NCBI GenBank assembly: GCA_944332525.1
Contig: CALVKD010000001.1
Location: 49,841-113,840, forward strand
Reading direction: 5' to 3'
From: an uncultured Bacilli bacterium
GTDB lineage: Bacteria; Bacillota_I; Bacilli_A; RFN20; CAG-449
Length of the DNA: 64,000 nucleotides
In this document: one piece after another, positions 20,717 through 50,324 of the stretch
How the letters are laid out: every line of letters starts with the position of its first letter
How positions within the stretch are numbered: position 1 is the first letter of the stretch
The notes under the pieces: model-generated
What the model saw: only the letters and a program-made list of their open reading frames with translations
Database searches by the model: none
Told to the model about the DNA's origin: nothing
Made by a program: the position numbers and the translations under genes

Positions 20717-20751
20717 TGAATAATTATTCCTCTATTTTTATATTATTAATT

Positions 20752-20779: not shown

Positions 20780-20953
20780 ATAAAGAAATTTGATAATAAA
20801 AATCAAAAAGTAATTAGTAGTATTAAGATTAAAAAACTTATATACTACTAATTACTTACTTCATACTATATTTAAACTAATTTATTACTATTTAACTAAT
20901 AAATCACTAATTAACTACTAATGCATTAATTACGCCATAATTATGGCAAGTCA

Positions 20954-28182: not shown

Positions 28183-28671
28183 TTATAGATAAGTAAAATC
28201 ACTATTATCGACATAGTATGCCGACCTTTGAAGATTTTTCCCGCTGATAAGAAATTTAAGAGAATCGCTTCTATCAGCAATTAGGTAAGTAATCCGAAAC
28301 CCACTCAGCGCAAAATTATTTGCGTCATTTTTTTCGCTTAAGGTAAACGAATCGGAAAAATACCCTAAATTTGCAGCTTGGACATTATCAGAAAGCGAAT
28401 ATGAAGAATTGATAACAATTAATTTTAAATCGTCGATTTGTAGATTTTTATAAGTTATCAATAATGAAACATCATAATATCCGCTTTGCTTACTTTCAAA
28501 TGAAGTAACCGAATAATTAAACGGTGCCTCCTCAAGCGATGAATAATCGCTTTGATTAAGTAAAAATTGTAAGTCGCTTTGATAAATATCCGCGTAGTTT
28601 TTATCGGTTACTCGATAACCATTACAAGAAACTAGCAAAACAAGTGACAATAAGTAAATAATCTTCTTCAT
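28183..28671 (-). CDS. hypothetical lipoprotein
   Basis: Signal peptide with LLVSC lipobox (MKKIIYLLSLVLLVSCNG). The rest is Ser/Tyr/Asp-rich with no recognisable domain. Start chosen at the internal M to avoid overlap with leuS. Confidence 0.45.
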   Translation of the reverse strand: MKKIIYLLSLVLLVSCNGYRVTDKNYADIYQSDLQFLLNQSDYSSLEEAPFNYSVTSFESKQSGYYDVSLLITYKNLQIDDLKLIVINSSYSLSDNVQAANLGYFSDSFTLSEKNDANNFALSGFRITYLIADRSDSLKFLISGKNLQRSAYYVDNSDFTYL

Positions 28672-28672
28672 A

Positions 28673-31075
28673 CTATTTAGCGACAATATTGACAATCTTA
28701 TTCTTTACAACAATAACTTTCTTAATTTCTAAACCGGCTAATTTACCTTTAATTACTTCATTATTTAAGGCAATTTCTCTCACTTCATTTTCTTCTTGAT
28801 CGACTTTGATTTCAATTGTCGCACGAAGTTTTCCATTAACTTGAACACCGATAGTTATAGTCTGCTTAACAAGTTTGCTTTCATCATAAACCGGCCACTT
28901 TTGATAATCTACTATCTCTTTTTCACCAGTCATCTGATAGAGTTCTTCACCTAAATGAGGACAGACGCAAGAAAGCATCTTAGCGAAATCCTTTAAATAA
29001 GGGACATATATTTCTTTAGCCTTATAACAGTCGTTAATGAAAACCATCATTTGAGCTAAAGCCGTATTAAACTGTAAGTTTTCAAAATCATGATCAACCT
29101 TTTTAATTAAGAAGTTAAATGAATAATCGAGTTCACCATTATTTTCATTTCTCCATTTATCGGTGAATTCTTTTTCGCTGTAGAGACGGTATACGCGGTC
29201 TAAGAAACGTTTAGCACCATCTAAACCGCTATTTGACCATGGAAGAGAAGCCTCTAATGGACCCATGAACATTTCATAGAAACGTAAAGCATCAGCGCCA
29301 TAACTCTTAACAATATCATCTGGATTGATGACGTTTCCGCGAGATTTTGACATCTTTTCACTATTTTCACCAAGAATCATTCCTTGATGGAAAAGTTTTT
29401 TAAATGGTTCTTTGCATTTTACTACTCCGATATCGTAAAGGAATTTATGCCAGAAACGAGCATATAATAAGTGAAGAACCGCATGCTCAGCTCCGCCGAT
29501 ATATAAATCGACTGGCAACCAGTGCTCAATTAATTTAGGATCAGCTAAAGCTTTAAGGTTGTGTGGATCAATATAGCGAATATAGTACCAGCACGAACCC
29601 GCCCATTGCGGCATTGTATTAGTCTCTCTCCGGCCTTTCATGCCGTCAATAGTAACTTCAAGCCAATTTTTTGCATGAGCTAACGGAGATTCTCCTTCTC
29701 TTGACGGTGCGAAATTATCGACTTCCGGCAAAGTTAATGGGAGCTCATCTTCTGGGACAGCGCGAATGGTTCCGTCTTCCATATGAATTAGAGGAATTGG
29801 TTCTCCCCAATATCTTTGACGTGAGAAAAGCCAGTCGCGTAATTTATAATTAACTTTTCTTCTACCTTGTTTTAATTCGATAAGTTTATCGGTTATCGCT
29901 TTCTTTGCTTCAGCAATATTCATTCCGTCAGCAAACGAAGAATTAATATGTTTTCCATCTCCTTCGTACGCTTTTTCAGAAATGTCTGCTTCAATAACCT
30001 TGCGAATAGGCAAATTATATTTCTTAGCGAATTCGTAATCGCGTTGATCATGGCTTGGTACTGCCATAACGGCACCAGTTCCATAGCTAGCTAAAACATA
30101 GTCGCCGATAAAAACTGGGACTTCTTCTCCGTTAATTGGATTGATGCAGTAAGCACCGGTAAAAACGCCTGTTTTATCTTTATTTAAATCGGTGCGTTCC
30201 ATATCGGATTTTGTTTGGCATCTCTTAATATATTCCTCAACGGCAGCTTTTTGCTCAGGAGTAGTGATTTTTTCAACTAATGGATGCTCAGGTGCTAAGA
30301 CGCAATATGAGCAGCCAAATAAAGTATCCGCTCTCGTCGTAAAGACAGTGAAAATATAATTTGTACCCTTAACTTTGAAATCGATTTCTGTACCTTCGCT
30401 ACGTCCAATCCAGTTTCTTTGCATTTCTAATGTCGATTGCGGCCAATCTAATTCATCGAGGCCTTCTAACAACTTATCAGCGTAGGCTGTAATTTTTAAA
30501 ACCCATTGACGCATTGGTTTTCTGATAACTGGAAATCCTCCGCGTTCACTCTTTCCGTCGATAACTTCTTCATTAGCTAAAACAGTCCCTAAATCTGGGC
30601 AGTAGTTAACCGGAACATAACGAACTTCAGCCAATCCTTTTTCATACATCTTTAAAAAGATCCACTGCGTCCATTTATAGTAATCTTCATCTGTTGTTCT
30701 AATTTCCTTGCTCCAATCGTAAGAAAAACCTAACATCTGCATTTGCTCGCGGAAATGGTCAATATTCTTATATGTAAATCCTTTCGGATGATGGCCGGTT
30801 TTTAAAGCAAATTGTTCTGCTGGCAAACCAAAAGCATCAAATCCCATCGGATGTAAAACGTTGAAGCCTTTCATCCTTTTCATTCTCGCGACGATATCTG
30901 TCGCTGTATATCCTTCTGGATGTCCGACATGTAATCCTTGTCCTGATGGATATGGAAACATATCCAATACGTAATATTTCGGCTTAGAAAAATCATAGAC
31001 ATCACAAAAATACGTCTGGTGATCAGCCCAGTATTTTTGCCATTTCTTTTCAATATTTTGATAATCGTAACCCAT
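28673..31075 (-). CDS. leuS: leucyl-tRNA synthetase
   Basis: HVGHPEGYT (HIGH) and KMSKS motifs. 800 aa. Confidence 0.97.
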
Positions 31076-31135: not shown

Positions 31136-32053
31136 TTATTCAACTTGATTATCGCCGCTTCCGTCTTTACTAATAAAGACATTTTCAACGTTTTTAATCA
31201 AGGCGAACATTTTTTCATGAAAACTTCGCATACTCAAAATTTTCTTTTCAAAAATTTCTGATGATATGCGGTGGAAAATTCCATCCACAAAAGTCATTTT
31301 TAAATCTTTAACAAAGAGCAAGAGATGCTCATCATCAAAAACGAGATTGATTTTATGATTAAAATAATTATCGATTTCAATAACTGATTTAATACCTCCA
31401 TTATCCATAAAATCATAAATTTTATTACCTGAAGCATAGATATAAAAATTATCAGATAATGAATAAGAGGCAAAACCATAAGCATTAAGAGCTTCATTTT
31501 CATAATATTTTTTTGCATATACTTCCTCATCGCAGATTTGAAAGAAGAAGTTTGTCGCGACATTAAATTCGGAAATAAATATCATTCCGTATCCAGTTTT
31601 AACGTGATCATTATAACGGACGAGATAAATATCAAACGATCGTTCGCTAGTAGCATCAGAATAAGCCTCTAGATAATAGAATTTTTTCAGAAAAAATATT
31701 TTTTTTAAATAGTTATCGCGTTCTTGATTAATGATGATGTTATTGTCTAAAAGATATATTTCTTCAAGTTTGCATTCATTTAGAAAAATCTTCTTGTATT
31801 CGTCGAGATAGATTTTATTAAGCCTTAGGCTATAGAGAAATGCTGATAAAACAATTAAGATGGTAATCAAGACAAAATATAAACTAACAAAATATATTAA
31901 TCCGTGAATAATTTCCCTCTTTTCTAGATATTTTAATAAAAAATATCCACCAAATAGTAAAATTGCGAAAACGACGATAAAAATCGAGAGTTTTAGAAAA
32001 GAAAAAAACTTGATTCTATTTAATTGCTGAACGCGGACTTCATAGTTTTTCAT
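31136..32053 (-). CDS. hypothetical membrane protein: two N-terminal TM helices and a domain of about 230 aa of unknown function
   Basis: 305-aa ORF with hydrophobic segments at about 15-40 and 50-76. No recognisable motif. Last gene of the jetABC-like operon. Confidence 0.45.
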   Translation of the reverse strand: MKNYEVRVQQLNRIKFFSFLKLSIFIVVFAILLFGGYFLLKYLEKREIIHGLIYFVSLYFVLITILIVLSAFLYSLRLNKIYLDEYKKIFLNECKLEEIYLLDNNIIINQERDNYLKKIFFLKKFYYLEAYSDATSERSFDIYLVRYNDHVKTGYGMIFISEFNVATNFFFQICDEEVYAKKYYENEALNAYGFASYSLSDNFYIYASGNKIYDFMDNGGIKSVIEIDNYFNHKINLVFDDEHLLLFVKDLKMTFVDGIFHRISSEIFEKKILSMRSFHEKMFALIKNVENVFISKDGSGDNQVE

Positions 32054-32107
32054 AATTCAATTATAGAAGATGCGTTTTAACATTTAAACAGAGATCAAGT
32101 ATTTTAA

Positions 32108-32557
32108 TTAATCATTGTATCGAGAATTATCGAGATTCTTTTTTCTTTTTTTCCTCTTTCTAACGAAGATTAAGCAGATGATGAATAATCCGCCATAGAT
32201 AATTAACATAAAGTAATTATTCCAAGCTAGGAAATTCGTCAAAGGCTCTGTGTTATTAACAAAATTTCCAATAAACACAGCAAGAGCATTGCTTAAGTAA
32301 GCATGAAACGTTGCTAATGGAAGAGATATAGCATTTAACGCCTGATCTAGAAATGCTCCAATATGGTTCAAATCTTTCAAATTATCGGTTAATACACCGG
32401 TCGATGATAGATAGTAAAGCCCATTGGAAAGGAAGAAAGCAAAGAAAAAGAAGGTGATAAAACGTGTTTTTTTAGCTATCACGACGATGATAACCATCAA
32501 AACAATTAATATGATAAGAAATATCAGACTATTTAGCAAAAGGTCTAATCCATCCAT
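32108..32557 (-). CDS. hypothetical small polytopic membrane protein with a basic C-terminal tail
   Basis: 149 aa, 3-4 hydrophobic segments, C-terminal RKRKKRKK. AGGAGA SD sits 11 nt after the jetC-like stop, so translational coupling is likely. Confidence 0.4.
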   Translation of the reverse strand: MDGLDLLLNSLIFLIILIVLMVIIVVIAKKTRFITFFFFAFFLSNGLYYLSSTGVLTDNLKDLNHIGAFLDQALNAISLPLATFHAYLSNALAVFIGNFVNNTEPLTNFLAWNNYFMLIIYGGLFIICLIFVRKRKKRKKNLDNSRYND

Positions 32558-32568
32558 AATAGTATCTC

Positions 32569-35500
32569 CTATTTACCATGATACACGAATGGATCCATAT
32601 GCGAAACATTTTCTTGAGGTTTTCTTGTAACAACTAAGGTTCTATCGACAACCGTTGAGATATCGAGAACTTTCTCTGGTGGTGCCGAAATGATTACTTG
32701 CAAATCGAAATCTTTTAAAATCTTAATGGATTCAACAATTCTGTTACGATCCATCTTTGAGAAAGCTTCATCAAAGATAACTAATCTGATGCAGTTAGAA
32801 ATATTCTTATTGGCCTTAACGCGGTAAAGCTGTGAGAAAGAAGCTAAGATTGAGATATAGAATGGTGTTTGCGTTTCACCGCCAGAAGCCTTTTTAATAT
32901 TTCTCGCTAAGGAATAGACGGCTCCGTCTGGCTTTTTAACTTTTAAGTCGAAGATTAAATATGAGCGATAATCTGTGAACTTTTCAATATTTTGAGCGAC
33001 TTGTTCAGCTTTATCCTTACCTTCTCCATCAGAGATTAAACGGAATAAATTATCCATGACATCTTTATGCTTGAGCAAGAAAGCTTCATCATCGCTATCG
33101 ACATCGAGCAACATCTCATCGGTAATCATATTGTAATAATCGATATATTGAGGATTTGGTTGAATTGTAAATTCATAGGAATCCTGACCGAAATGCGCAT
33201 CTTTTAAAGCTTCGTTAAGGTCACCGATTTGTAAACGCGCCTGTTCAATAGCCGTTTTTAATTTAAAAATGAAATCATCCTTAAATTCTTTAGTTGCCTT
33301 TTGATGTGCATCTTCAATTTTGACTAAGTACTGAGGAAGTTTGACATCGCGCAGCGTTGTTAATTCTCTCTCAAAATCATCATTATCTTCTTTAGTGATA
33401 TCATATGATAATTTATAGGTAATAACGTAAGAAGACCGACGATCTTTCAATTGTTCATTAAGGTTTCTAATTCTGTTTTGAACCTTAGAGTAGATATCAT
33501 CATATTTTAAACGGATATCAGCTAATGAGAGATTGCTTGCGAGTTCGTTATCAAAGGTTGGTTTTGCTGTTTGCTCAACCCATTCCGTATCAAATGAATT
33601 CTCAATTTCTTCCATGTAAGCTGAGGATTTCTTAACTTCTTGCGGAATCTTTTCTTCTTTAGTGACTTTAATATTATTCTGTAAAGCACCTTTTTCGAGA
33701 ATTAATTCATTTTTCTGATTGTTAAGTTGTTCGATATCGGTATCAATTCTCTTAATCTTCGTATCAGTAGTTTGCAGATCTTGACTCGTACCAGCTTTTA
33801 ATTCTTCTTCGTACTGTTTAAGATTATTCTTTAATGAAGCGAGTAAATCGCTGCTATCGAGCTGATTGAGGCAAATCATCTGCTCAGATTGCGACATAAT
33901 ATCGAGTTCTTTAGCTTCAGATAAAGTATCAACTAATTCTTTTAATGCTCCGATTGATTTAGCTTCTAAATCGAGTTCTTTCATTCTCTGATCGCGGACT
34001 TCACGCGATACCGATCTTCCAATCAACGGATAACGGTAAAGGCGATCTGGTATGACAAAGGAAGCAAATGAACGATATCCAATGCAGGAAGGACAAATAC
34101 CATGTCCGGATTCTCTAGCTTCTTGGAAAGTTTCACATTTTGTTAATCGACCAATTAAGAAATTAGTATAATCGCGGGCACCTTTATGATCGGTAATAAT
34201 TTCTTCGGCCAAAGAATTTTCTTCAGCTTCAAAATTATGCTGAGCTAACGCTCTCTCATCGACTAAACCCGTCCGGTGATAGCCGTTTCTCTTCATAATA
34301 CCCGGCAATAACTTATTAGCAACTTCGTAATATTTATCCTTAACGAATAAATTAAGTTTCTGAGCGGAAATAAATCCCTCAATTGCATTAATCCAGCGCT
34401 TATTACGAATATCGACCAAATCAGCGTAAATTAAGACATCAACTTTTTCATGGAAATGATCTTCAAGAGCCAATTTTAATTGATTTCTGACATTGAGGAA
34501 AGCATCGTCATAGTATTTACCGCTGCTTGAAGTAACTAAAGTCTGCTTTTGCTGGCTAATTCTATTGATAACCATACCGATAGATGACTTTAAGACGCTA
34601 TATTCTTCAATAACAACATTTTTAAAATCACTAATAGCCGATGAAAAGTTTTTGAATAAGTCTGGTGTCAAAGAGCCTAAATTCAAGGCTTCTTTGGTTG
34701 CCATTAACGCTTTATCAAGATTGGCACATTCTAATTCAAGATGCTTCAAAGACTCTAATACTTTGTTATCATCAGTATGCTCAGCAGAACTCAAGCATAA
34801 TGAATTAATTTTATTTTCATAATTTAAGAAATTATTAACATACGTATTAATGCGAGTATATAAAGCTTGAAGATTTTCTTCAATCTCGCAAACTTTTCTT
34901 TCAGCATCTTGATAAGATTTTCTTAAATCTTGAGTTAATTTATAATTATCATTAGAAAATTTATAAGCGATTAAGGTTTGCTTTTGTTCTTCAAGAGCTT
35001 CAATATCGCTTTCGATTTCCCTAATTGAAGAATCAATTTCAGCAATTCTTTCCTCAGCGCGGCTGATATCATTATGATAAGATGCGATATAATCAGAAGA
35101 AATCTGTAAGAAAATTCTCTTCGAGATATAGGAAGCTAAGGACATTTCTTTACGTTTATCAACTATCTGTTGATAAATATTATGAATTTCTTCAAGCGAT
35201 TTAATTTTTACCATCATCTCATCGGCTTCGATTTTTAAGCGTTCATATGAGGTAATATTTGATTTCATCGATTCAATATTAATATCATTAGGAACATCGC
35301 AAACATATTCGGTGATAAAGGATTCAATATTGGTGATAGGTATAAAGGAAACAGCCTTCTTAAAGAGTGAGAAGTATTTTTCCTTAAGATTACCAAATTT
35401 TTCTTTAATGACCCCTTGGTATTGCGCGTTTGAATCACAGAAAATAAATTTATCGCTATTATAATTTGCACTAAAATACTCTTGCAAAGTCTTTTGTGAC

Positions 35501-35937
35501 ATTGGAACGCGATCGATTAAGAAATGGTTTTCTGGAAATTTATCTTCGAGATAGAAGAAGCGGTGTTGCTCAGAACCATCATCGAAAACATCAAAAACGA
35601 CACCGACAGTAAACGGTTGATTCAAGACATCATCGAAAAATTCCAGTGCGATATAGGAAGTAAAGCGACCAGTTCTTAAAAATTTTGTCGATCCATCTTC
35701 ATTATCACCGACTTCACAGCGCAGATACCCTTTTAAAGTACGACCGGATTTTTCATTAGCAGCCTTATTAAAAGAACGACCATAGGTGTCGCCAAGCAAA
35801 ACAACTTGCATAGCATCGATAACTGTCGATTTTCCGGCAGCATTAACACCGGTTAAAAAGTTTAACATGCCGAATTCAACTTCAATATTTTGGAAATAGT
35901 GCCAGTTGATCAGACGCAATTTAGTTAATTTTTTCAT
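32569..35937 (-). CDS. MukB/MksB/JetC-like SMC-family ATPase
   Basis: 1122 aa. N-terminal LRLINWHYF...GVNAAGKST (MukB-type Walker A). Long coiled-coil regions around a globular hinge of about 170 aa (GICPSCIGYRS). C-terminal SGGE signature, Walker B LVIFDEAFSKMD and a D-loop. Confidence 0.7.
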   Translation of the reverse strand: MKKLTKLRLINWHYFQNIEVEFGMLNFLTGVNAAGKSTVIDAMQVVLLGDTYGRSFNKAANEKSGRTLKGYLRCEVGDNEDGSTKFLRTGRFTSYIALEFFDDVLNQPFTVGVVFDVFDDGSEQHRFFYLEDKFPENHFLIDRVPMSQKTLQEYFSANYNSDKFIFCDSNAQYQGVIKEKFGNLKEKYFSLFKKAVSFIPITNIESFITEYVCDVPNDINIESMKSNITSYERLKIEADEMMVKIKSLEEIHNIYQQIVDKRKEMSLASYISKRIFLQISSDYIASYHNDISRAEERIAEIDSSIREIESDIEALEEQKQTLIAYKFSNDNYKLTQDLRKSYQDAERKVCEIEENLQALYTRINTYVNNFLNYENKINSLCLSSAEHTDDNKVLESLKHLELECANLDKALMATKEALNLGSLTPDLFKNFSSAISDFKNVVIEEYSVLKSSIGMVINRISQQKQTLVTSSSGKYYDDAFLNVRNQLKLALEDHFHEKVDVLIYADLVDIRNKRWINAIEGFISAQKLNLFVKDKYYEVANKLLPGIMKRNGYHRTGLVDERALAQHNFEAEENSLAEEIITDHKGARDYTNFLIGRLTKCETFQEARESGHGICPSCIGYRSFASFVIPDRLYRYPLIGRSVSREVRDQRMKELDLEAKSIGALKELVDTLSEAKELDIMSQSEQMICLNQLDSSDLLASLKNNLKQYEEELKAGTSQDLQTTDTKIKRIDTDIEQLNNQKNELILEKGALQNNIKVTKEEKIPQEVKKSSAYMEEIENSFDTEWVEQTAKPTFDNELASNLSLADIRLKYDDIYSKVQNRIRNLNEQLKDRRSSYVITYKLSYDITKEDNDDFERELTTLRDVKLPQYLVKIEDAHQKATKEFKDDFIFKLKTAIEQARLQIGDLNEALKDAHFGQDSYEFTIQPNPQYIDYYNMITDEMLLDVDSDDEAFLLKHKDVMDNLFRLISDGEGKDKAEQVAQNIEKFTDYRSYLIFDLKVKKPDGAVYSLARNIKKASGGETQTPFYISILASFSQLYRVKANKNISNCIRLVIFDEAFSKMDRNRIVESIKILKDFDLQVIISAPPEKVLDISTVVDRTLVVTRKPQENVSHMDPFVYHGK

Positions 35938-36566
35938 TCTGCATCCTCCATAAATTCTTCATCCGGAAGTGATTCAACTTGCTTATATAGGCTTTGAATT
36001 ACTTCGTAATCAACCACAAATGCAATTGAAGGATTAATATAGAAAGTTAAATTTTTCTCATAAAAATCCCCGCTTATTCTCGTTATAATATTATGTTGTT
36101 CTAAAAAGCGATATGACGATTCAAGCGATGAATACGAGACCCTTTTATCTTGACGAATTAAATGCATATTAATTAAGCACTGCATTAATTCATGGCTAGT
36201 AAAACGGACGACTTGATTAAGTGCGTCATCATTATTTTGAGTTTCGTAGACATATCTTAAAGCAAAAATAACTAAGGATGTTTTTAAATCCAATTTCAAA
36301 TGATTTTCTTCATATTCATTTTTAATAGAAATTACCCCGCGCGATGAATCTTTATTAACAATCCATCCAGATAAAGAGAGATAGTTTGAAACTAAATCAA
36401 GATGGCGCTCAATAAAGGAATACTCTTTACTCGCCCGCATCATCTTCGCATTGCGGTCGTAATAATCTCTGAGAATAAAACTTTTCAGCATCAAAGTATT
36501 AACCACATGGGCGAATTCCTCTTTTTCGACATTGCGCAATTGTTCATATTCTTCTAGCATCGTCAA
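35934..36566 (-). CDS. MukE/MksE/JetB-like kite subunit candidate
   Basis: 210 aa, overlapping both neighbours by 4 nt. Size and position match the kite subunit of MukFEB-like operons. Assigned by context, not by motif. Confidence 0.45.
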   Translation of the reverse strand: MTMLEEYEQLRNVEKEEFAHVVNTLMLKSFILRDYYDRNAKMMRASKEYSFIERHLDLVSNYLSLSGWIVNKDSSRGVISIKNEYEENHLKLDLKTSLVIFALRYVYETQNNDDALNQVVRFTSHELMQCLINMHLIRQDKRVSYSSLESSYRFLEQHNIITRISGDFYEKNLTFYINPSIAFVVDYEVIQSLYKQVESLPDEEFMEDAE

Positions 36567-37993
36567 TTCTCCTTTTTAGTATAGATATAATCTGGTGCAT
36601 TAACTTTATCATTAACTTCGACGTTGACGTTTAATTTATCCTCGCGGTCCATATCATAGAAACTAATCGGTGCTGTTGCTTTAATTGCTCCAAGCATCAA
36701 ATAGAGGAAATCATCAACGCTTTCAACTTTACAATCGTGGACGCGTATTTGTTTTTTATCTTGAAAATTTTCAGCCATAAATTCCATAACTCTCTCATCG
36801 GAGTAACGCGCTGTTTCAGCCATTGCCATCGTCATTTGCGAATCATCGAAAATATGTTCATCATCAGGTAATGGAAGCGGATCAGAGAAGAACTTTTGAT
36901 TTCTCTCATATGGTTTTCTAAGCGATCCCTCATCATAATAACCCTGCGTGTAGAGTTTTATTGAAGAGCCAAATGCCCTAATAATATTTGGATATGAGGA
37001 ATTTCTATCTTGCTCATTTTTGGAAAGATTTCTAGCTAATACCGTAAAAATCTTTTCGAGTTTACCCTTAACCGATTTATCGTGGTTATTGAGGAAGATG
37101 ACCTTATCCGCCGAAGCTTTAACATATTCCGATTGCGAAACATCAATATTATTAATTTCCGTAGACAAGCGGAGATAGATATCTTGAATTCTCGTAATCT
37201 TTTTTACTACATCATCAGTAGCTTCTAATCGCGATTTGACCGATTTATTTTCTTTAAGGCATTGATCAATTAATTTTTCACGTACTGTATCAACTTCTAA
37301 CCAGCGTTTCAAAATTGAAGAAATTGGTCCGTGATAAAGAGTGATTGAATCATGGGTTTTTAACGGATGGTAAATTGGATCGACGACGTCTTCACGGCAG
37401 ATATCAAAATGCTGCTTGAGGACTTCGTTAGGCTCAAACATATCGCTGAGCTGACGTTTATATACTTTAATTGAATGATCGAGTTTAGCTACCTCAATGG
37501 CTAATGATTCAGTATTGTTATAGGCATTTTCTAAGGTTTTATACATTGATTCATCTTGATTATCATCTTCATATTTTAAATCAGCATATGTTGTATGCAC
37601 GTAGCTAACATAATGATTTGCAGAAGTGTCGGCAAATTCGTAAATCAGTTTCAACATATTAACAGAATATGAAGGAAGCAAGATATATTCGGTGCCTGTT
37701 TTTGTGTCGTAATCAATATAAATCCAACCTGTTTCAATTAAGCGTTTAACAATTTGATTTGCTTTCGCGCCAATTGATGTTTCGCTTACTACACCATCTT
37801 CTTCATCAACGTAAGAATTTAAATCATCGCCGGAACGACTCTTTAATAATTCGACATAATCATTTTTTCTTATGCGCGCGCGATAAAGGTTTAATGCATC
37901 ATAAAGCACGATTAAAGCATCGCCGTAAACTCCCTTATTACGCGATGCTAAAATTGAAAAGAAATTATCCGGTAATTTTGCAAATAAATTCAT
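36563..37993 (-). CDS. MukF/MksF/JetA-like kleisin subunit candidate
   Basis: 476 aa, first gene of a translationally coupled three-gene operon with the SMC-like ATPase. Assigned by size and context. Confidence 0.45.
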   Translation of the reverse strand: MNLFAKLPDNFFSILASRNKGVYGDALIVLYDALNLYRARIRKNDYVELLKSRSGDDLNSYVDEEDGVVSETSIGAKANQIVKRLIETGWIYIDYDTKTGTEYILLPSYSVNMLKLIYEFADTSANHYVSYVHTTYADLKYEDDNQDESMYKTLENAYNNTESLAIEVAKLDHSIKVYKRQLSDMFEPNEVLKQHFDICREDVVDPIYHPLKTHDSITLYHGPISSILKRWLEVDTVREKLIDQCLKENKSVKSRLEATDDVVKKITRIQDIYLRLSTEINNIDVSQSEYVKASADKVIFLNNHDKSVKGKLEKIFTVLARNLSKNEQDRNSSYPNIIRAFGSSIKLYTQGYYDEGSLRKPYERNQKFFSDPLPLPDDEHIFDDSQMTMAMAETARYSDERVMEFMAENFQDKKQIRVHDCKVESVDDFLYLMLGAIKATAPISFYDMDREDKLNVNVEVNDKVNAPDYIYTKKEN

Positions 37994-38049: not shown

Positions 38050-38802
38050 TTATTTTCTATTTTTTTCAATATATTCAGAATCAAGCTTTTTTAATTCTTT
38101 GAGTTTCTCAGAAATCATCGCTTTTATCTTATCAGCTAACTCTTGAGTGTTCATATTTTTATATTCTTCATATTTTAATGGTTCAAAGATATGAATAAAT
38201 ACTGGCTGTTTCTTCAAATTGGAACTTTTGGAGTCAAGTATCCGAAATGAGCCCCACATCGCAACGGGGAAAATATCTACTTTAGCCTGCATCGCCATTT
38301 TTAATGATCCAGCTTTAAAATCGCCAAGAGTATGGTCTTTATCTTTGCTTCTTGTTCCCTCTGGAAAAATAACCCATTTTTTATTATCTTGTAAAAGCGA
38401 TGTTCTCACCTGCTGCATTACCTTGATTTCTTGTCTAAGATTTTCTCTTTCGAGATAAAGTCCATCAATAGCCTTAATGACTTTTCCAACATAAATATAT
38501 TTCTCAGCTTCCTTTTTAGCGACGAAAGTCGTTATCTGCGGAGAAATAGCTACAATCATCAAGGCATCCATAAAAGATTGATGATTAGGCGTCAATAAAT
38601 AACTAGGCTGTACTGGTAATGTCTTTTTCCCGGTTAAAATGATTTCGACATTTAACGCTTTAATAGTATTAATTATAATTTCCCGCATTTGATTATAGCG
38701 TTTCTGCAAGGAATAATTTTGTTTTGAAGCGGAATATATGAGCGGATACTTTCTTATTAAGTATGGTACTGCCCGAAAAACATAACCGAGATATTTATTC
38801 AT
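38050..38802 (-). CDS. plsC: 1-acyl-sn-glycerol-3-phosphate acyltransferase
   Basis: HQSFMD (HX4D) and FPEGTRS acyltransferase motifs. 250 aa. Confidence 0.8.
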   Translation of the reverse strand: MNKYLGYVFRAVPYLIRKYPLIYSASKQNYSLQKRYNQMREIIINTIKALNVEIILTGKKTLPVQPSYLLTPNHQSFMDALMIVAISPQITTFVAKKEAEKYIYVGKVIKAIDGLYLERENLRQEIKVMQQVRTSLLQDNKKWVIFPEGTRSKDKDHTLGDFKAGSLKMAMQAKVDIFPVAMWGSFRILDSKSSNLKKQPVFIHIFEPLKYEEYKNMNTQELADKIKAMISEKLKELKKLDSEYIEKNRK

Positions 38803-38810
38803 AAAGCCTC

Positions 38811-39107
38811 CTATAAGCCACGCTTATTAAATTGGTAATCGGCTCCGGCAATATACATAAGAGCTTCAACGACGATAATAATTTTTCCCTCGTAAACTTC
38901 TAATCTACCATCGACCGAGATCAATGTGCCATTTTTATACGAAAATAAAGAATTACGATCATCGCGCGACCACATCATCAAAGGAAATATATCTTTTGGA
39001 TAGACTCCTTGATCATCTTTATATTGACGCGTGACTTCAATATAACGAATTGGGGATTTACTTTCTCTTTCGAGTAAAACTCCATTTAGTGAGACATGAT
39101 TAATCAT
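38811..39107 (-). CDS. short single-stranded-DNA-binding protein paralog (OB fold only, no acidic C-terminal tail)
   Basis: MINHVSLNGVLLERE...MMWSR...ISVDGRLEV...IIVVEAL aligns with the SSB OB fold (MLNRVVLVGRL...VTWRR...GVDGRLQ). About 98 aa. Start chosen at the internal M. Confidence 0.6.
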   Translation of the reverse strand: MINHVSLNGVLLERESKSPIRYIEVTRQYKDDQGVYPKDIFPLMMWSRDDRNSLFSYKNGTLISVDGRLEVYEGKIIIVVEALMYIAGADYQFNKRGL

Positions 39108-39178
39108 AGCAAAACACCTCACCTATATTTTACCATGTTAAGAAATAACCGCGTCCGCGACTAATCGCAGATGAGTCT

Positions 39179-41319: not shown

Positions 41320-43734
41320 TTAATCCTCGCTTTGGTTATCTTCATTTAAGTATTCATCCGACAGGGTGCGCCTGCCGTTTTCTTTAATTATTATTCCGTC
41401 TTCTTCAAGAGCATCAAGCAAACCATCTGCTCTAGCAAATCCGATTTTAAAGGCGTTTTGAATTTTTGTCGGAGTGCATTTTCCAGTTTCTAAAACGTAA
41501 TTTTTAACCGCTGGATAAAGGTCATCATCATGGAAATCTTTAACGCTTTCATTAATTAAATCATAAGCTGTTGGAGCTTTCGATGATAAATCGAATTTTG
41601 GATCATAATGGACTGACGCATATTTCTTAATATGCTCACAGACGGCATAAATTTCTTTTCCGTCAATATAAGCTGACTGAACTCTGAGCAACGATTTCGG
41701 CGAAGGCAACCGGGCGAGCAAGTCTCCTTTTCCCATTAAGTTTTCCGCGCCATCTTCATCGATGATAATTCGTGACTCTAACGATGAAGAAACCGACAAA
41801 GCGATTCTTGACGGGATATTCGCCTTGATTTCACCAGTAATTATTTTAGCTGATGGTCTTTGGGTGGCAATAACCATATAAATTCCGCAAGCTCGTGCTT
41901 TTTGAGCTAAGCGCTGAATGAATTTGCTCGTCTCTTTGTCGCCATCGGACATAAAGTCAGCAAACTCATCACAGATCATCACGATATAAGGGATTTTCGG
42001 ATAATTCTTTTCTTCACAGACTTCGAGGTATTCTTTGTAGTTAGCAGCCCCTTCGCCTTTTTCAGCAAATAAATCATAACGGCTTTCCATTTCTTCAACT
42101 AATTTTTTCAAGGCGATTTTTCCTTGATCGGTCGAAGTGATAACCGGGCAGAGCAAATGCGGCAAATTTTGGTAACGCAAGAATTCAACGCGCTTAGGGT
42201 CGATAAGCATAAGTTTTAACTCATCGGGTTTATTTCTCATTATTAATGAAGTGATAATATTATGGATAAATACTGATTTACCAGAACCAGTAGTTCCGGC
42301 GATTAATAGGTGAGGCATATCATCAAGCTTGCAAGATATAACTTTACCGGAGATATCCTTACCTAATGGGAATAGCAATTTATCCTTTGCATTATCGGCG
42401 ATTGACTGCATGCAATCTTTAAATGAAACTAAATTCGAAGTTTTGTTTCCAACCTCAATTCCGCATGTATCCTTGCCTTCAATAATTGTTTCAATTCTTA
42501 CTGTTTTATTTCCTTCTAAACGGACTCCTAAATCAGTCTCGAGATTATTGAGGACACTAGTTTTAACATTGTGATTAAGTTTTACGTCAAAGCGAGTTAC
42601 TGATGGACCAATAGTATAAGATATAACTGATGCGCCGATATCAAAGTCGCGGAAACATTCATTAATTTTCTTTGCTCTTTCATCGGCAATCGCAATTTTT
42701 TCTTGTAAATTATTATTTACACTTCTATCTTTTAGAAGGTCAAGGCTCGGATAGACATAAGGGCCTTTATATTCTTCTTCAGGAGTGATTGTTTCAATAG
42801 TTTCTTTTTCAGATTTTTTATTAAAGAAAGAATCAAACTTATCGTTTTTATAGGTATCAATAATCCGTGGCTCTTTCTTAACTGTTTTCTTTTCTTCCAT
42901 TTTCTTCATCGCTTCTTCATGTGAAGGATCAGAGAAAGTAAAAGAATTAGGCTTAATTTCCTCTTTAACTAAATTTACCTCTTCTGGAAGTGGTTCCTTA
43001 ATACTTTCAACTAGTTTTTCACTAGGTTGAGCTATTTTCTTTGTCGGTACGTAAGCTTCCATTTCTTCTTCGATCTTTTCGACATGTATTTCTCTTTTTA
43101 AAGGAGATTCAGTGCTTGGCGAAGAATAATCTGTCTCGGTCTTTTTTAGTTCCTTTTCTTTCTCACGAATAGTTTTGACTTCATTTTTTACGCTGACTAG
43201 ATGTGAAATCAACTGGCTTATCGGAAGGAGTAAAACAAAGATAGCTCCTAAGAAAATTAACAAAGCCGAAATAATCAAGGTACCAATACTAGTAAAGGCA
43301 GTATTTAATGCAGCAGAGAAAAAATACCCGATAAACCCTCCGTTAAGAGAAGAGACGATATCACCAAAAGAGGTAAAAGATAAACCGCTTGATTTTATTG
43401 AATTAGTTAAATCGCTATAAAAAGAGAAAAAGTTATTCATATTTAATCCATCGCTTTGGCTTAACCCAATAGTTAATCCAAAGAAAAGTAAAATAACTCC
43501 CGTCAGAGAAATAATTTTCACCTTTTTGCGAATAAAGATTTTATTAAGTCCATCAAGAAAAAGAAAAACGCTAACTAAGAAATAAGTAGCTCCAAAAATG
43601 TATGCCAAAACAAATGTTAGAAATTTAGAAATTAATCCAACATTTATAAAGGCTAAAACAGAAATAACGATTTCTAAAATACCTAATAATATTCTTGTAA
43701 CCCTAGTCGAGGTCTGATTTTTTTCTTTCTTCAT
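41320..43734 (-). CDS. ftsK: DNA translocase FtsK/SpoIIIE
   Basis: N-terminal TM helices, a Glu/Lys-rich linker, and a motor domain with GTTGSGKS. 804 aa. Confidence 0.9.
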   Translation of the reverse strand: MKKEKNQTSTRVTRILLGILEIVISVLAFINVGLISKFLTFVLAYIFGATYFLVSVFLFLDGLNKIFIRKKVKIISLTGVILLFFGLTIGLSQSDGLNMNNFFSFYSDLTNSIKSSGLSFTSFGDIVSSLNGGFIGYFFSAALNTAFTSIGTLIISALLIFLGAIFVLLLPISQLISHLVSVKNEVKTIREKEKELKKTETDYSSPSTESPLKREIHVEKIEEEMEAYVPTKKIAQPSEKLVESIKEPLPEEVNLVKEEIKPNSFTFSDPSHEEAMKKMEEKKTVKKEPRIIDTYKNDKFDSFFNKKSEKETIETITPEEEYKGPYVYPSLDLLKDRSVNNNLQEKIAIADERAKKINECFRDFDIGASVISYTIGPSVTRFDVKLNHNVKTSVLNNLETDLGVRLEGNKTVRIETIIEGKDTCGIEVGNKTSNLVSFKDCMQSIADNAKDKLLFPLGKDISGKVISCKLDDMPHLLIAGTTGSGKSVFIHNIITSLIMRNKPDELKLMLIDPKRVEFLRYQNLPHLLCPVITSTDQGKIALKKLVEEMESRYDLFAEKGEGAANYKEYLEVCEEKNYPKIPYIVMICDEFADFMSDGDKETSKFIQRLAQKARACGIYMVIATQRPSAKIITGEIKANIPSRIALSVSSSLESRIIIDEDGAENLMGKGDLLARLPSPKSLLRVQSAYIDGKEIYAVCEHIKKYASVHYDPKFDLSSKAPTAYDLINESVKDFHDDDLYPAVKNYVLETGKCTPTKIQNAFKIGFARADGLLDALEEDGIIIKENGRRTLSDEYLNEDNQSED

Positions 43735-43833
43735 AAACTTATAATACTATGTTTTTTCTGAGATAAAAAGATTATCATAAATACTTTAATAATTTATTTT
43801 TTTGATATATATCTGAATATTTTTTCTATTTTC

Positions 43834-43868
43834 GACAAAAGAAAAAGTTTGCTTTTAGGGGCAAACTT
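43834..43868 (-). terminator. putative intrinsic terminator (minus strand) after the 77-aa membrane protein gene
   Basis: On the minus strand: AAGTTTGC, 8-nt loop, GCAAACTT, then TTTTCTTTTG. Confidence 0.45.
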
Positions 43869-44100
43869 ATTCATACTTTTTTTGATTCTTCCAAAGGTAG
43901 ATTACAGTAAATAAACATCCGATCACGATGATTATTGAACCATATATCACATATGGAAGAATATTTGGTGCGAGTTGCATGTAATTAGATATTGCCTTAA
44001 TAGCAATGAACCCGATTAGTAATGCAAGCATAGAGATATCGCACGCGAGTAAAATTCTTAATGCTCTCTTCATCTCGATCATTCCCCTTTTCGTTTTCAC
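43867..44100 (-). CDS. hypothetical small membrane protein (two TM helices)
   Basis: 77 aa, between the ftsL-like gene and ftsK. Confidence 0.4.
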   Translation of the reverse strand: MKTKRGMIEMKRALRILLACDISMLALLIGFIAIKAISNYMQLAPNILPYVIYGSIIIVIGCLFTVIYLWKNQKKYE

Positions 44101-44102
44101 GA

Positions 44103-44330
44103 CTAATCGATAATGACGATATCATCTGCTTCTTGACTTTGCACTTGATTTTGAACCCGCTCGCTTTGGGTCATCGCAACAGTTAATTCCTGATTGGTGT
44201 TAATGATGTTAAATAATGAGGCTCCACCAATTACGATAGTAAGCAAGAATAGCGCTAGTCCGACAATACCTAAACGGAAGCAGATATAATCAAACTTCGT
44301 TTTATTTACTTTGCTGGTTTTGTTTTTCAT
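44103..44330 (-). CDS. FtsL-like small bitopic division protein candidate
   Basis: 75 aa with a single TM helix and a Gln-rich periplasmic coil. Immediately downstream of rsmH, as ftsL is in dcw clusters. Confidence 0.4.
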   Translation of the reverse strand: MKNKTSKVNKTKFDYICFRLGIVGLALFLLTIVIGGASLFNIINTNQELTVAMTQSERVQNQVQSQEADDIVIID

Positions 44331-44335
44331 AAGTC

Positions 44336-45259
44336 CTACTTCCTTTCTAGCACGCGGAGGTGTGCGCTTTTACTACGCGGATTGGCTTCAATCTCTTCTT
44401 TAGAAGGGTTAATCACCTTTCTGGTAACTAATGTGAATTCCGTTTTACGAGGTTCGCTAGGTAAGGTGCGAGATCCTTCCCCTTGATAAGTGTATTTTCG
44501 GAAAATATTTTTCACGATTCGGTCTTCGAGGGAATTAAAGGAAATAACACAGAGACGACCGTGATGATCAAGCATATTAATTGCGGCTTCTAAACCTCTT
44601 TCTAGAACTGCGAGTTCATCATTGACCTCAATTCTGATTGCCTGGAAAACTTGTTTGGCCGGATGGCCTTTCTTTTCCAAGACTTTAAACGGTAATGAAG
44701 CTTTAATAATATCGACAAGTTCAAACGTTGTCTCAATTTTTTTCTTTAATCGTTCCCTAACGATGTTAGAAGCGATTTGATAGGAGTATTTCTCCTCGCC
44801 ATACTCTTTGAAGATGCGTGTTAACTCTTCAAGAGAATAATCATTGACTACTTGATAAGCAGTTAAATTTTTATCGCGATCCATTCTCATATCAAGCTTT
44901 GCATCATATCGATACGAGAATCCGCGGTCACCTTCGTCAAACTGAGCTGAGGACACACCGAGATCGAAGATTGCACCGGATATTTTGTCCACATTTCTCT
45001 TCTTTAATTCTGAGGCGAGATTTTCGAAGTTGGCATGAATAATTTCGTAACGCGAAGATATCTTTGCTAGACGCGCTCTACTTTCTTCAATTGCCTGTTC
45101 ATCTTGGTCAAAGCAATAAAGGAATCCATCCTTGAGTAGCGACAAGATCTTAGAGGAATGCCCTCCGCGACCTAATGTAGCATCAACATATGTGCCGCTT
45201 GGGTTAATCTCAAGATTAGCTATGGTTTCCTGAAGGAGGACAGGAACATGGCTATACAT
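44336..45259 (-). CDS. rsmH: 16S rRNA (cytosine1402-N4)-methyltransferase
   Basis: MraW family: HVPVLL...YVDATLGRGGHS. 307 aa. Confidence 0.95.
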   Translation of the reverse strand: MYSHVPVLLQETIANLEINPSGTYVDATLGRGGHSSKILSLLKDGFLYCFDQDEQAIEESRARLAKISSRYEIIHANFENLASELKKRNVDKISGAIFDLGVSSAQFDEGDRGFSYRYDAKLDMRMDRDKNLTAYQVVNDYSLEELTRIFKEYGEEKYSYQIASNIVRERLKKKIETTFELVDIIKASLPFKVLEKKGHPAKQVFQAIRIEVNDELAVLERGLEAAINMLDHHGRLCVISFNSLEDRIVKNIFRKYTYQGEGSRTLPSEPRKTEFTLVTRKVINPSKEEIEANPRSKSAHLRVLERK

Positions 45260-45698
45260 TCTTATCTTCCTTTTGTGCTATAACCTTAGCATTGGCTTCG
45301 AATGACGCATCATCATTGGCTGAGACTTGTGAATAGATATCTTTGTCCCAGATCTCAACGTGATCATAATTACCGACAACAACAACATCTTTGGTGATGT
45401 GAGCTCTGGCAAGATGATCCTTGCTGAGTGTGATCCGTCCGACTTTATCAAATTCATAATCCATTGAGGAAGCAAAGAAAGTTCTCTTATAGGTTCTCTC
45501 TTCTGGCACTAATTCGTTAAGTCGAGCATTTTTTTCACTTAATTCAATGAAGGTTTCTTCTGGATATAAGCAAAGGCAATTATCAAAACCTTTGGTAACA
45601 TAACATCTACTACCAATAATGTCCCTCATTTTTTGAGGAAGTATTAATCGCGACTTCTCGTCGAGATGGTAAAAGTATGTTCCAAAGAATATTTGCAT
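45252..45698 (-). CDS. mraZ: transcriptional regulator MraZ
   Basis: MQIFFGTYFYHLDEKSRLILP duplicated DXXXR-type domain. ATG at 45698 with GGGAGA SD is preferred over the track's GTG at 45713. Confidence 0.9.
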   Translation of the reverse strand: MQIFFGTYFYHLDEKSRLILPQKMRDIIGSRCYVTKGFDNCLCLYPEETFIELSEKNARLNELVPEERTYKRTFFASSMDYEFDKVGRITLSKDHLARAHITKDVVVVGNYDHVEIWDKDIYSQVSANDDASFEANAKVIAQKEDKNV

Positions 45699-45760
45699 TA
45701 CACTTTCTCCCACCAGATACCCTTATTATACCCTACTCACCCACTTTTGCAATAGATTTT
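45699..45760 (-). promoter_or_regulatory. mraZ promoter with MraZ-box direct repeats
   Basis: Minus strand TTGCAA, 16 nt, TATAAT. Four GTGGG/AGGGT-type repeats at 10-11-bp spacing (TGGGTgagtaGGGTAtaataaGGGTAtctggTGGGA) overlap the -10 hexamer and the leader. Confidence 0.5.
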
Positions 45761-45803
45761 ATAGATTATTTGCTAAAAATTGATTTTTGCCAATAAATTT
45801 TGG

Positions 45804-45835
45804 TAAAAAAAAGTTCAGGATTAGAACCTGAACTT
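45804..45835 (-). terminator. intrinsic terminator (minus strand) after the 45845-46354 gene
   Basis: Minus strand AGTTCAGG, 7-nt loop, CCTGAACT, then TTTTTTTT. Confidence 0.7.
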
Positions 45836-45844
45836 ACCACAATT

Positions 45845-50322: not shown

Positions 50323-50324
50323 AA

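What the first reader, a model, noticed from the sequence alone, without database searches (positions are those of the whole stretch)
31136..37993. MukFEB-like (Wadjet JetABC / MksFEB-type) condensin operon lacking the JetD/MksG nuclease, extended by two membrane proteins
There are three translationally coupled genes with 4-nt overlaps, of 476 aa, 210 aa and 1122 aa. The last one is unambiguously a MukB-type SMC ATPase: an LINWxxF N-terminus, an AAGKST Walker A, coiled coils, a hinge, then SGGE and a DEAF Walker B. Sizes and order match the kleisin-kite-SMC of the Wadjet anti-plasmid system or the MksFEB condensin. No roughly 400-aa Toprim/DUF2220 JetD gene follows. Instead a 149-aa polytopic membrane protein starts 11 nt after the SMC stop with its own SD, and a 305-aa two-TM protein follows. 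Both are of unknown function, and leuS comes next. In a small wall-less genome that should already encode SMC-ScpAB, this second SMC complex with a non-canonical membrane-bound fourth and fifth gene is the strongest candidate for an undescribed variant system. The membrane proteins could be an effector or anchor replacing JetD.
Basis: partly seen in the sequence, partly recalled or inferred. Interest (0 to 1): 0.8.

Follow-up and report, generated by a model that had tools for sequence, protein, structure and literature searches.

The report
Nuclease-less Wadjet SMC operon, chromosomally fixed
This is a DNA-folding SMC motor of the Wadjet anti-plasmid type (JetA, JetB, JetC) that lacks its DNA-cutting subunit and sits at one fixed chromosomal position across a whole group of small-genome gut bacteria, so it looks like a defence system turned into a housekeeping chromosome organiser; the two membrane genes behind it are optional, fast-evolving companions and not a replacement nuclease.

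Summary
Five co-directional minus-strand genes (476, 208/210, 1122, 149 and 305 aa) sit between a plsC-like gene and leuS. Profiles identify the first three as type I Wadjet JetA, JetB and JetC, with ATPase motifs intact.

No JetD exists in the 64-kb window, in about 10 kb beyond each edge, or in 74 of 75 assessable related species. The one outlier, Caldicoprobacter, has a normal JetD, which served as a positive control.

In this uncultured RFN20-like Bacilli clade, jetABC occupies one housekeeping position (jetABC, then glgCDA, then leuS). That fits a domesticated MksBEF-like condensin better than a mobile defence island.

The 305-aa protein is a divergent DUF3137 membrane protein. It has two TM helices and a cytoplasm-facing domain whose best structural match is TtfA. 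It shows no nuclease or Toprim features. It appears ancestral behind jetC but was lost at least five times and is present in 24 of 75 species.

The 149-aa protein arose once, in the window's subclade. 48 of 75 species have neither gene.

Whether Smc-ScpAB coexists could not be tested.

Verdict: a new variant of a known kind, of moderate interest.

The parts
36563..37993 (-). jetA (kleisin, MukF/MksF-like), 476 aa
   Evidence: Pfam PF18982 JetA scores 4.3e-80 over residues 31-456. PADLOC JetA1 PDLC00449 scores 1.6e-104 over the full length. The gene is present in 77 of 80 related loci.
35934..36566 (-). jetB (KITE, MukE/MksE-like), 210 aa from the TTG start or, more likely, 208 aa from the ATG at 36560
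   Evidence: Pfam DUF4194 scores 2.6e-15. PADLOC JetB1 PDLC00502 scores 2.1e-59. The ATG with an AAGGAG Shine-Dalgarno sequence lies 2 nt after the jetA stop.
32569..35937 (-). jetC (MukB/MksB-like SMC ATPase), 1122 aa
   Evidence: PADLOC JetC1 PDLC00519 scores 1051.6 bits over residues 1-1109. Pfam AAA_29 scores 5.9e-16 and SbcC_Walker_B scores 3.7e-23. Walker A GKST, the SGGE signature and the DEAF Walker B are invariant in alignment A1. The best solved relative by profile is JetC 8as8_A at 4e-10. jetC shares an ATGA overlap with jetB.
32108..32557 (-). Small polytopic membrane protein ('tm149'), 149 aa, with a conserved C-terminal polybasic tail followed by an acidic/aromatic end
   Evidence: It starts 11 nt after the jetC stop with an AGGAG Shine-Dalgarno sequence. 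It has no Pfam, PADLOC or NCBIfam family. Homologs are found only in the window's JetC subclade, in 16 loci by jackhmmer, always directly after jetC. Conserved features come from the family alignment.
31136..32053 (-). Two-TM DUF3137-family membrane protein ('p305'), 305 aa, with a cytoplasm-facing TtfA-like alpha/beta domain

Best explanation
The locus encodes a complete, intact JetA-JetB-JetC complex (kleisin, KITE and SMC) of type I Wadjet ancestry. It lost its JetD nuclease in the ancestor of a large clade of uncultured, reduced-genome gut Bacilli (RFN20-like: CAG-449, CAG-826, 'Ca. Onthovivens') and has since stayed at one housekeeping chromosomal position.

Shown: the family identity, the intact ATPase motifs, the local absence of JetD, and the clade-wide synteny.

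Inferred: without JetD the complex cannot cleave DNA by the Wadjet route. It therefore most likely acts as an ATP-driven DNA loop extruder on the host chromosome. That would make it an MksBEF/MukBEF-like condensin and an independent case of a defence SMC turned to housekeeping.

The 305-aa DUF3137 protein is probably the ancestral fourth gene of this JetD-less operon. It is a membrane-anchored, non-enzymatic scaffold-type protein whose soluble domain faces the cytoplasm. At most it is a dispensable membrane tether or modulator of the complex. The 149-aa protein is a later addition specific to the window's subclade. A functional link of either membrane protein to JetABC is not demonstrated.
For: Identity: Pfam and PADLOC hits for JetA, JetB and JetC are very strong, and the best PDB relative by profile is JetC 8as8.

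Integrity: Walker A, the signature motif and Walker B are invariant across relatives at 43-64 % identity. JetC is about 1117-1138 aa in 78 JetD-less genomes.

No JetD: none was found in any window ORF of 120 aa or more, or in about 10 kb beyond either edge. jackhmmer and tblastn seeded with a true JetD found nothing in the window or in the other loci then held (L001-L083, L085, L086). The positive control, L084 JetD_C, scores 3.5e-28.

Housekeeping context: in most loci jetABC is followed by glgC-glgD-glgA and, further on, leuS. Upstream neighbours are ftsK-pulA-plsC or sigA-relA-rluD.

Tally: 74 of 75 assessable GTDB species loci are JetD-less.

p305: it is a DUF3137 protein with a confident model and a TtfA/CCDC47-like fold. 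It occurs on both sides of the deepest split of the JetD-less JetC tree. The 284-aa proteins in the same position are remote homologs (hhalign 94.7 %, E 5.8e-08). Its topology is cytoplasmic.
Against: - No functional data exist. A role on the chromosome is inferred only from the missing nuclease and the genomic context.
- It is unknown whether Smc-ScpAB or a distant jetD lies elsewhere in the genome, since only about 84 kb could be inspected.
- JetC and LeuS identities to the window do not co-vary (r about -0.3). Strictly vertical descent of the module is therefore not proven, although its position is conserved.
- The membrane genes evolve much faster than JetC (26 % against 62 % identity in the closest relative). 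That pattern is also seen in defence effectors.
- The promoter and terminator scans were at chance level, so the operon boundaries are not established.
Confidence: 0.55

Rival explanations
1. It is still a defence system with a non-canonical effector. JetABC senses small circular DNA by loop extrusion, and the membrane proteins (DUF3137, with or without tm149) replace JetD. They would do so by sequestering the trapped plasmid at the membrane or by triggering membrane damage.
For: - The DUF3137 gene sits exactly where jetD sits and is probably ancestral to the JetD-less clade.
- Three family members found independently of JetC all lie behind jetABC.
- The adjacency survives changes of both flanks: glgC, leuS or other genes downstream, and two different upstream contexts.
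- The accessory proteins diverge very fast.
- The soluble domain faces the cytoplasm.
- The tm149 tail is conserved, and it is degenerate in the one lineage that lost p305.
- C. glutamicum Mks proteins are anchored at poles and septa (PMC10123090).
Against: - 48 of 75 species keep an intact jetABC with neither membrane gene.
- Unrelated genes (a bile-salt-hydrolase-type CBAH, an amino-acid ABC transporter) are inserted between jetC and p305.
- p305 has no nuclease, Toprim, pore or toxin signature, and only E93 and L96 are near-invariant.
- Neither membrane protein has a PADLOC hit.
- The context is housekeeping and fixed, not a variable island.
Confidence: 0.15
2. The two membrane genes are unrelated neighbours kept only by regional synteny, just as glgCDA and leuS are. 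The functional unit is jetABC alone.
For: - The whole region is syntenic, so adjacency alone carries little information.
- The membrane genes were lost repeatedly.
- Insertions separate p305 from jetC by 1.7-3.3 kb in L015, L016, L032, L046 and L086.
- p305 has no Shine-Dalgarno sequence and has a promoter-like TTTAAA-17-TATAAT immediately upstream, which suggests its own transcript.
- DUF3137 is a general bacterial family that is not known to be tied to SMC systems. This last point is my own knowledge plus two incidental literature mentions.
Against: - p305-type genes stay next to or near jetC through rearrangements on both sides and across the deepest JetC split.
- No member of this subfamily was found anywhere other than behind jetABC.
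- tm149 is tightly coupled to the jetC stop, with an 11-nt gap and a Shine-Dalgarno sequence overlapping the stop codon.
Confidence: 0.3
3. The operon is a decaying remnant. After JetD was lost, jetABC became functionless and is simply not yet deleted.
For: The nuclease that executes the only demonstrated Wadjet function is absent.
Against: - Full-length JetA, JetB and JetC with invariant ATPase motifs persist in about 78 species whose JetC proteins have diverged to 41-64 % identity.
- These genomes are reduced, and about 5.4 kb of useless DNA would not be expected to survive in them.
- Only 2 of 80 loci show a broken or partial jetC, and both are on short contigs.
Confidence: 0.03

Closest known systems
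Type I Wadjet JetABCD (e.g. E. coli GF4-3, PDB 8as8; also called MksBEFG or EptABCD)
   Same: The three core families are the same (JetA PF18982, JetB DUF4194, JetC MukB-like ATPase), the gene order is jetA-jetB-jetC, the genes are tightly coupled, and the best PADLOC models are all type I. A JetD-bearing relative, Caldicoprobacter, is only slightly more distant at 39 % JetC identity.
   Different: There is no JetD/MksG Toprim nuclease. The locus is fixed in a housekeeping context across a clade instead of being patchy and island-borne. A DUF3137 membrane gene often occupies the fourth position.
MksBEF of Pseudomonas aeruginosa, and mycobacterial MksB (JetD-less Muk-like condensins)
   Same: Both are a kleisin-KITE-SMC trio without the nuclease. 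[quoted passage not shown]
   Different: The loss here is independent and occurred in Bacillota. The sequences are closer to type I Wadjet of Clostridia. The module is core and syntenic across an order-level clade. It has optional membrane-protein neighbours. No functional data exist.
MukBEF of gamma-proteobacteria
   Same: The architecture is the same and there is a weak MukB N-terminal match. MukBEF is the example of a Muk-type complex that replaced Smc-ScpAB.
   Different: The Pfam MukB hit is below the cutoff (17.9 bits against 23). There is no evidence here for replacement of Smc-ScpAB, and no MatP or topo IV interaction data.
TtfA (mycobacterial trehalose-monomycolate transport factor A, PDB 6t84) and CCDC47
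   Different: Sequence identity is only 7 %. p305 has two TM helices and a DUF3137 sequence signature. The biology is unrelated (mycolate export, ER translocon). This is a fold resemblance only.
DUF3137 (PF11335) proteins
   Same: 20 of 31 p305-family members hit the model, best 2e-08, over the soluble domain.
   Different: The window copy alone is below the gathering score (15 bits against 26.1). This is a fast-diverging subfamily restricted to positions downstream of jetABC. DUF3137 itself has no known function.

Membership tests
Wadjet type I (JetABCD) | JetA kleisin (PF18982 / DUF5716) | tested here: met
   Pfam gives 4.3e-80 and PADLOC JetA1 gives 1.6e-104.
Wadjet type I (JetABCD) | JetB KITE subunit (DUF4194) | tested here: met
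   Pfam gives 2.6e-15 and PADLOC JetB1 gives 2.1e-59.
Wadjet type I (JetABCD) | JetC MukB-like SMC ATPase with intact Walker A, signature motif and Walker B | tested here: met
   PADLOC JetC1 gives 1051.6 bits over the full length. The motifs are invariant in alignment A1. The profile hits JetC 8as8.
Wadjet type I (JetABCD) | JetD Toprim nuclease (DUF3322 plus DUF2220/JetD_C) in the operon | tested here: not met
   There is no JetD_C hit in any window ORF of 120 aa or more. jackhmmer and tblastn with a verified JetD found none. None lies within about 10 kb outside the window. The rest of the genome was not visible.
Wadjet type I (JetABCD) | Restriction of small circular plasmids | not testable with these tools
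   This requires a transformation or cleavage assay.
MksBEF-type (JetD/MksG-less) condensin | Kleisin, KITE and MukB-like SMC encoded together without a nuclease gene | tested here: met
   74 of 75 related species share this state.
MksBEF-type (JetD/MksG-less) condensin | Acts on the chromosome (organisation or segregation) | not testable with these tools
   This is inferred only from the fixed housekeeping context.
MukBEF | MukB N-terminal domain (PF04310), with MukF and MukE families | tested here: not met
   PF04310 scores 17.9 bits, below the cutoff of 23. No MukF or MukE Pfam hit appears, and the JetA and JetB families hit instead.
Smc-ScpAB | SMC_N plus SMC hinge protein, with ScpA and ScpB | tested here: not met
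   For JetC, SMC_N scores 15.7 bits, below the cutoff of 40. The only other SMC-like ORF in the window is a 550-aa RecN-type protein. Whether Smc-ScpAB lies elsewhere in the genome was not tested.
DUF3137 (PF11335), for the 305-aa protein | Match to the PF11335 profile above the gathering score | tested here: inconclusive
   The window protein scores E 0.023 and 15 bits, below the cutoff of 26.1. However, 20 of 31 aligned family members hit PF11335, best 2e-08.
Nuclease or Toprim effector (JetD replacement), for the 305-aa protein | Toprim or nuclease fold, or conserved catalytic residues | tested here: not met

The most novel reading that the evidence does not exclude
In this RFN20-like clade, the JetD-less JetABC has replaced Smc-ScpAB as the only chromosomal condensin. 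That would be a second, independent MukBEF-style takeover, this time inside Bacillota and only about 40 % identity away from nuclease-bearing Wadjet. In this reading, the DUF3137 protein (with tm149 in some lineages) is a membrane anchor or loader that couples the SMC motor to the cell membrane in cells that, in part of the clade, lack a wall.
Probability: 0.12. Interest if true: 0.75.

Novelty: new variant of a known kind. Interest (0 to 1): 0.42.

Why it matters
The SMC field proposes that chromosomal MukBEF and MksBEF arose from plasmid-cutting Wadjet systems by loss of the nuclease (PMC10586767). This clade looks like an independent example of that step:
- about 75 species carry an intact, positionally fixed JetABC;
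- a JetD-bearing sister system lies at a similar sequence distance;
- a membrane protein sits in the old JetD slot in a third of the species.

That provides a comparative set for asking which JetA, JetB or JetC surfaces change when the nuclease is lost. It also allows a test of whether a defence SMC can become, or coexist with, the cell's condensin. The practical limit is that all members are uncultured, so tests would need heterologous expression.

Tried and rejected
1. JetD elsewhere in the window. Every ORF of 120 aa or more was scanned with Pfam. A verified JetD was used as a jackhmmer and tblastn seed. Both window edges were extended by about 10 kb. Nothing was found.

2. Word-indexed homolog searches for the 305-aa protein, as a single sequence and as a profile, returned only 1 and 3 clusters. 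The exhaustive HMMER search was needed and found 18 clusters.

It was repeated with 17 permitted rows.

5. Single-sequence PDB searches for JetA, JetB and JetC found nothing. Only the JetC profile reached 8as8.

6. The test of vertical descent by correlating JetC and LeuS identities failed, with r about -0.3. I therefore rely on conserved position, not on co-divergence.

7. Promoter and terminator scans of 28-39.5 kb were at chance level (49 found against 49.1 expected, and 8 against 6.4), so they do not define the operon.

8. A B. subtilis-type dif site was not found within 3 mismatches.

9. Rfam and tRNA scans found nothing in the window.

10. My first hhalign run for the 284-aa group was contaminated with unrelated ORFs of the same length. 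It was redone cleanly with a reversed-sequence control.

11. The presence or absence of Smc-ScpAB in the genome could not be addressed with the available look-ups.
Full report
**1. Observation**

The minus strand carries five closely spaced genes between a plsC-like acyltransferase (38050-38802) and leuS (28673-31075):
- 36563-37993, 476 aa
- 35934-36566, 210 aa
- 32569-35937, 1122 aa
- 32108-32557, 149 aa
- 31136-32053, 305 aa

The 1122-aa protein contains LINWHYF, NAAGKST, SGGE and DEAF. These positions are invariant in an alignment with nine relatives at 43-64 % identity.

I read the junctions directly:
- jetB and jetC share an ATGA overlap.
- The 149-aa gene starts 11 nt after the jetC stop, and its AGGAG Shine-Dalgarno sequence overlaps that stop.
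- The next gaps are 54 nt and 60 nt.

There is one correction. The probable jetB start is the ATG at 36560, which has AAGGAG 8 nt upstream and gives 208 aa. It lies 2 nt after jetA's TGA. The overlapping TTG is less likely, and the 210-aa sequence is absent from the protein collection while the other four are present.

**2. Identity of the SMC genes**

- Pfam gives JetA (PF18982, 4.3e-80), DUF4194/JetB (2.6e-15), and AAA_29 plus SbcC_Walker_B for the large protein.
- PADLOC gives JetA1 (1.6e-104), JetB1 (2.1e-59) and JetC1 (1051.6 bits, full length).
- The MukB N-terminal and SMC_N hits are below their cutoffs.
- A JetC family profile finds E. coli JetC 8as8 as the best solved relative (4e-10), followed by MukB. 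Single sequences find nothing in the PDB.

This is therefore a type I Wadjet-type JetABC. It is not a MukBEF or an Smc-ScpAB.

**3. Absence of JetD**

- All window ORFs of 120 aa or more were scanned with Pfam. The window is housekeeping throughout: relA, rluD, hisS, aspS, parE/parC, xerD, dinB, recN, xseA, nusB, leuS, ftsK, mraZ/mraW, pheST, ftsZ/ftsA, recJ, ruvAB, obg and radC. Nothing hits JetD_C, DUF2220 or DUF3322.
- As a positive control, the 416-aa ORF overlapping jetC in Caldicoprobacter oshimai (L084) hits JetD_C at 3.5e-28.
- Used as a jackhmmer and tblastn seed, that JetD finds nothing in the window or in the other loci then held.
- Contigs of the same species extending about 10 kb beyond each window edge carry only housekeeping genes.
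- The rest of the genome could not be inspected.

**4. Relatives and context**

JetC has more than 2000 relatives at E <= 1e-30. The closest are unnamed metagenomic proteins. The named ones are 'Erysipelotrichales bacterium', 'Bacilli bacterium' and 'Ca. Onthovivens'.

A scan of GTDB species genomes returned 80 loci, mostly uncultured Bacilli or 'Mollicutes' MAGs including CAG-449 and CAG-826. These names belong to order RFN20, in which some families are predicted to lack peptidoglycan (PMC10868615).

In these loci jetABC sits at one chromosomal position. It is typically followed by glgC-glgD-glgA and then leuS. Upstream is either ftsK-pulA-plsC or sigA-trmK-relA-rluD.

Among the 75 loci with enough downstream sequence:
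- 48 have jetABC alone
- 16 have only a 305-aa-type gene
- 8 have both membrane genes
- 2 have only the 149-aa type
- 1 has JetD (Caldicoprobacter)

A fixed, syntenic, clade-wide position in a housekeeping neighbourhood is the opposite of the patchy, island-borne distribution that is usual for defence systems. That last comparison rests on established knowledge of defence systems.

**5. The 305-aa protein**

- Word-indexed searches found essentially only its own cluster.
- An exhaustive HMMER search found 18 clusters among 1.84 billion representatives, most about 300 aa.
- In the closest relative (JetC 62 % identical) it is only 26 % identical, so it evolves fast.
- The family alignment shows a short basic N-terminus, two TM helices, a conserved juxtamembrane motif (N-K-Y ... 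E-x-K-L) and a soluble domain of about 200 aa with almost no invariant residues.
- PF11335 (DUF3137) hits 20 of 31 members, best 2e-08. The window copy alone is sub-threshold.
- An AlphaFold2 model from a 17-row alignment is confident (pLDDT 86.3, pTM 0.80). It has two long helices (5-45 and 53-96), an alpha/beta domain and a long C-terminal helix.
- Summed over 22 members, K+R counts are 113 at the N-terminus, 36 in the loop and 93 after TM2. This indicates an N-in/C-in topology, so the soluble domain faces the cytoplasm (inference).
- The 284-aa two-TM proteins directly after jetC in five further genomes are remote homologs (hhalign 94.7 %, E 5.8e-08 over 223 columns, against 6.6 % for a reversed control).

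**6. Linkage of the membrane genes to jetABC**

For a link:
- Every p305-type gene found lies 16 nt to 3.3 kb downstream of jetC.
- Three members found by sequence alone, independently of JetC, also lie behind jetABC plus a TM gene of about 150 aa.
- On a JetC tree rooted on the JetD-bearing outgroup, p305 occurs on both sides of the deepest split of the JetD-less clade. It is therefore most simply ancestral in the fourth position and was lost at least five times, including in the large 'Onthovivens-like' clade.
- The 149-aa gene arose once, in the window's subclade.
- The most conserved feature of the 149-aa protein is a C-terminal polybasic run followed by an acidic/aromatic end. That feature is degenerate in the one lineage that lost p305 (L011 and L012).

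Against a link:
- Two thirds of the species do without both genes.
- Unrelated genes are inserted between jetC and p305: a choloylglycine-hydrolase gene in L015 and L016, an amino-acid ABC transporter in L046 and L086, and others in L032.
- The whole region is syntenic anyway.
- p305 lacks a Shine-Dalgarno sequence and has a promoter-like element just upstream.

I therefore treat a functional link as possible but unproven, at roughly one in three.

**7. Mechanism**

Shown: an intact kleisin-KITE-SMC ATPase set without its nuclease, kept for a long time at a fixed locus.

Inferred: it still loads on DNA and extrudes loops, but it cannot execute Wadjet-type cleavage. The most likely role is chromosome organisation or segregation. 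This matches what is described for P. aeruginosa MksBEF, which reviewers of the field consider a JetD-loss derivative (PMC10586767).

If p305 is involved, it would act as a non-catalytic membrane tether. A polar or septal anchoring precedent exists for C. glutamicum Mks proteins (PMC10123090).

The rivals are a defence system with a membrane effector (0.15), membrane genes that are merely syntenic (0.3, compatible with the main reading), and a decaying remnant (0.03).

**8. Caveats**

- Identities of JetA, JetB and JetC to the window correlate with each other (r 0.94-0.96) but not with LeuS (r about -0.3). The subclade at 54 % JetC identity has 60-64 % LeuS identity, while the 42 % JetC group has 65-71 %. 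This is unexplained. It could reflect rate heterogeneity or an old transfer of the module into the same locus.
The window's mraZ-mraW is not followed by mur or pbp genes, which is compatible with peptidoglycan deficiency but does not prove it.

**9. Verdict**

The 'undescribed variant with a membrane effector replacing JetD' is only weakly supported.

The more robust and more interesting result is a clade-wide, positionally fixed, nuclease-less Wadjet derivative in reduced-genome Bacilli, with a DUF3137 membrane protein as a probably ancestral but dispensable fourth gene. It is a new variant of a known kind (an MksBEF-like, JetD-less condensin). Interest is moderate, at 0.42.

Noticed in passing
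window 1-64000, switch at about 20576-20954: Genes at 1-20.5 kb are almost all on the + strand, and genes at 20.9-64 kb are all on the - strand. GC skew flips from positive to negative at the same point, where cumulative skew peaks. This convergent arrangement looks like a replication terminus. parE/parC (11919-16458), xerD (22157-23032) and ftsK (41320-43734) lie nearby, and jetABC is only about 11-17 kb away. No B. subtilis-type dif site was found within 3 mismatches.
   Followed up: partly
loci L002-L086 compared with the window: JetA, JetB and JetC identities to the window correlate with each other but not with LeuS identity. The group at 54 % JetC identity has 60-64 % LeuS identity, while the group at 42 % has 65-71 %. 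This could be rate heterogeneity or an old transfer of the jet module.
   Followed up: partly
window 43734-54514: The division cluster is reduced. mraZ-mraW (44336-45713) is followed directly by ftsK, with no ftsL, pbp or mur genes. An FtsQ-type POTRA protein, ftsA and ftsZ sit separately at 51359-54514. This is compatible with a peptidoglycan-deficient organism, as predicted for some RFN20 families.
   Followed up: no
window 7886-8533 (+): This 215-aa metallo-beta-lactamase-fold protein has an ortholog in L091 with a precomputed hit to PF23023, the Anti-Pycsar Apyc1 family of cyclic-nucleotide-degrading enzymes. It may be an ordinary MBL hydrolase.
   Followed up: no
window, whole: No tRNA gene and no Rfam family reach threshold in 64 kb. 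In particular, no T-box leader precedes any of the five aminoacyl-tRNA synthetase genes (hisS, aspS, leuS, pheS, pheT), which is unusual for Bacillota.
   Followed up: no
L015 11216-12475, L016 13879-14952, L046 13821-16508, L086 13883-16594: In some relatives, unrelated genes are inserted between jetC and the DUF3137 gene. L015 and L016 have a choloylglycine/bile-salt-hydrolase-family gene (CBAH, 1.4e-93). L046 and L086 have a three-gene amino-acid ABC transporter, recognised from the sequences.
   Followed up: partly
window 32108-32557 and its homologs: The most conserved feature of the 149-aa family is a C-terminal tail of 5-8 Lys/Arg followed by an acidic/aromatic end (E/D-D-Y/F). The tail is degenerate (IRKPKAVD) in L011 and L012, the only lineage that kept this gene but lost the DUF3137 gene.
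   Followed up: partly
window 38811-39122 (-) and 38050-38802 (-): A 103-aa ORF, whose ortholog in L002 has a faint SSB hit, and a plsC-like acyltransferase precede jetA. The same pair sits upstream of jetA in L002, L087 and L090, but not in L003 or L005.
   Followed up: no
window 28183-28695 (-): A 170-aa ORF with a lipoprotein-like N-terminus (LLVSCNG) overlaps the 3' end of leuS by 23 nt. It has no Pfam family. ORFs of similar size follow leuS in L001 and L002.
   Followed up: no
window 56141-58762 (-): An 873-aa protein between recJ and ruvB matches only SecD_SecF_C, and weakly (5.5e-07). It may be a very divergent fused SecDF.
   Followed up: no
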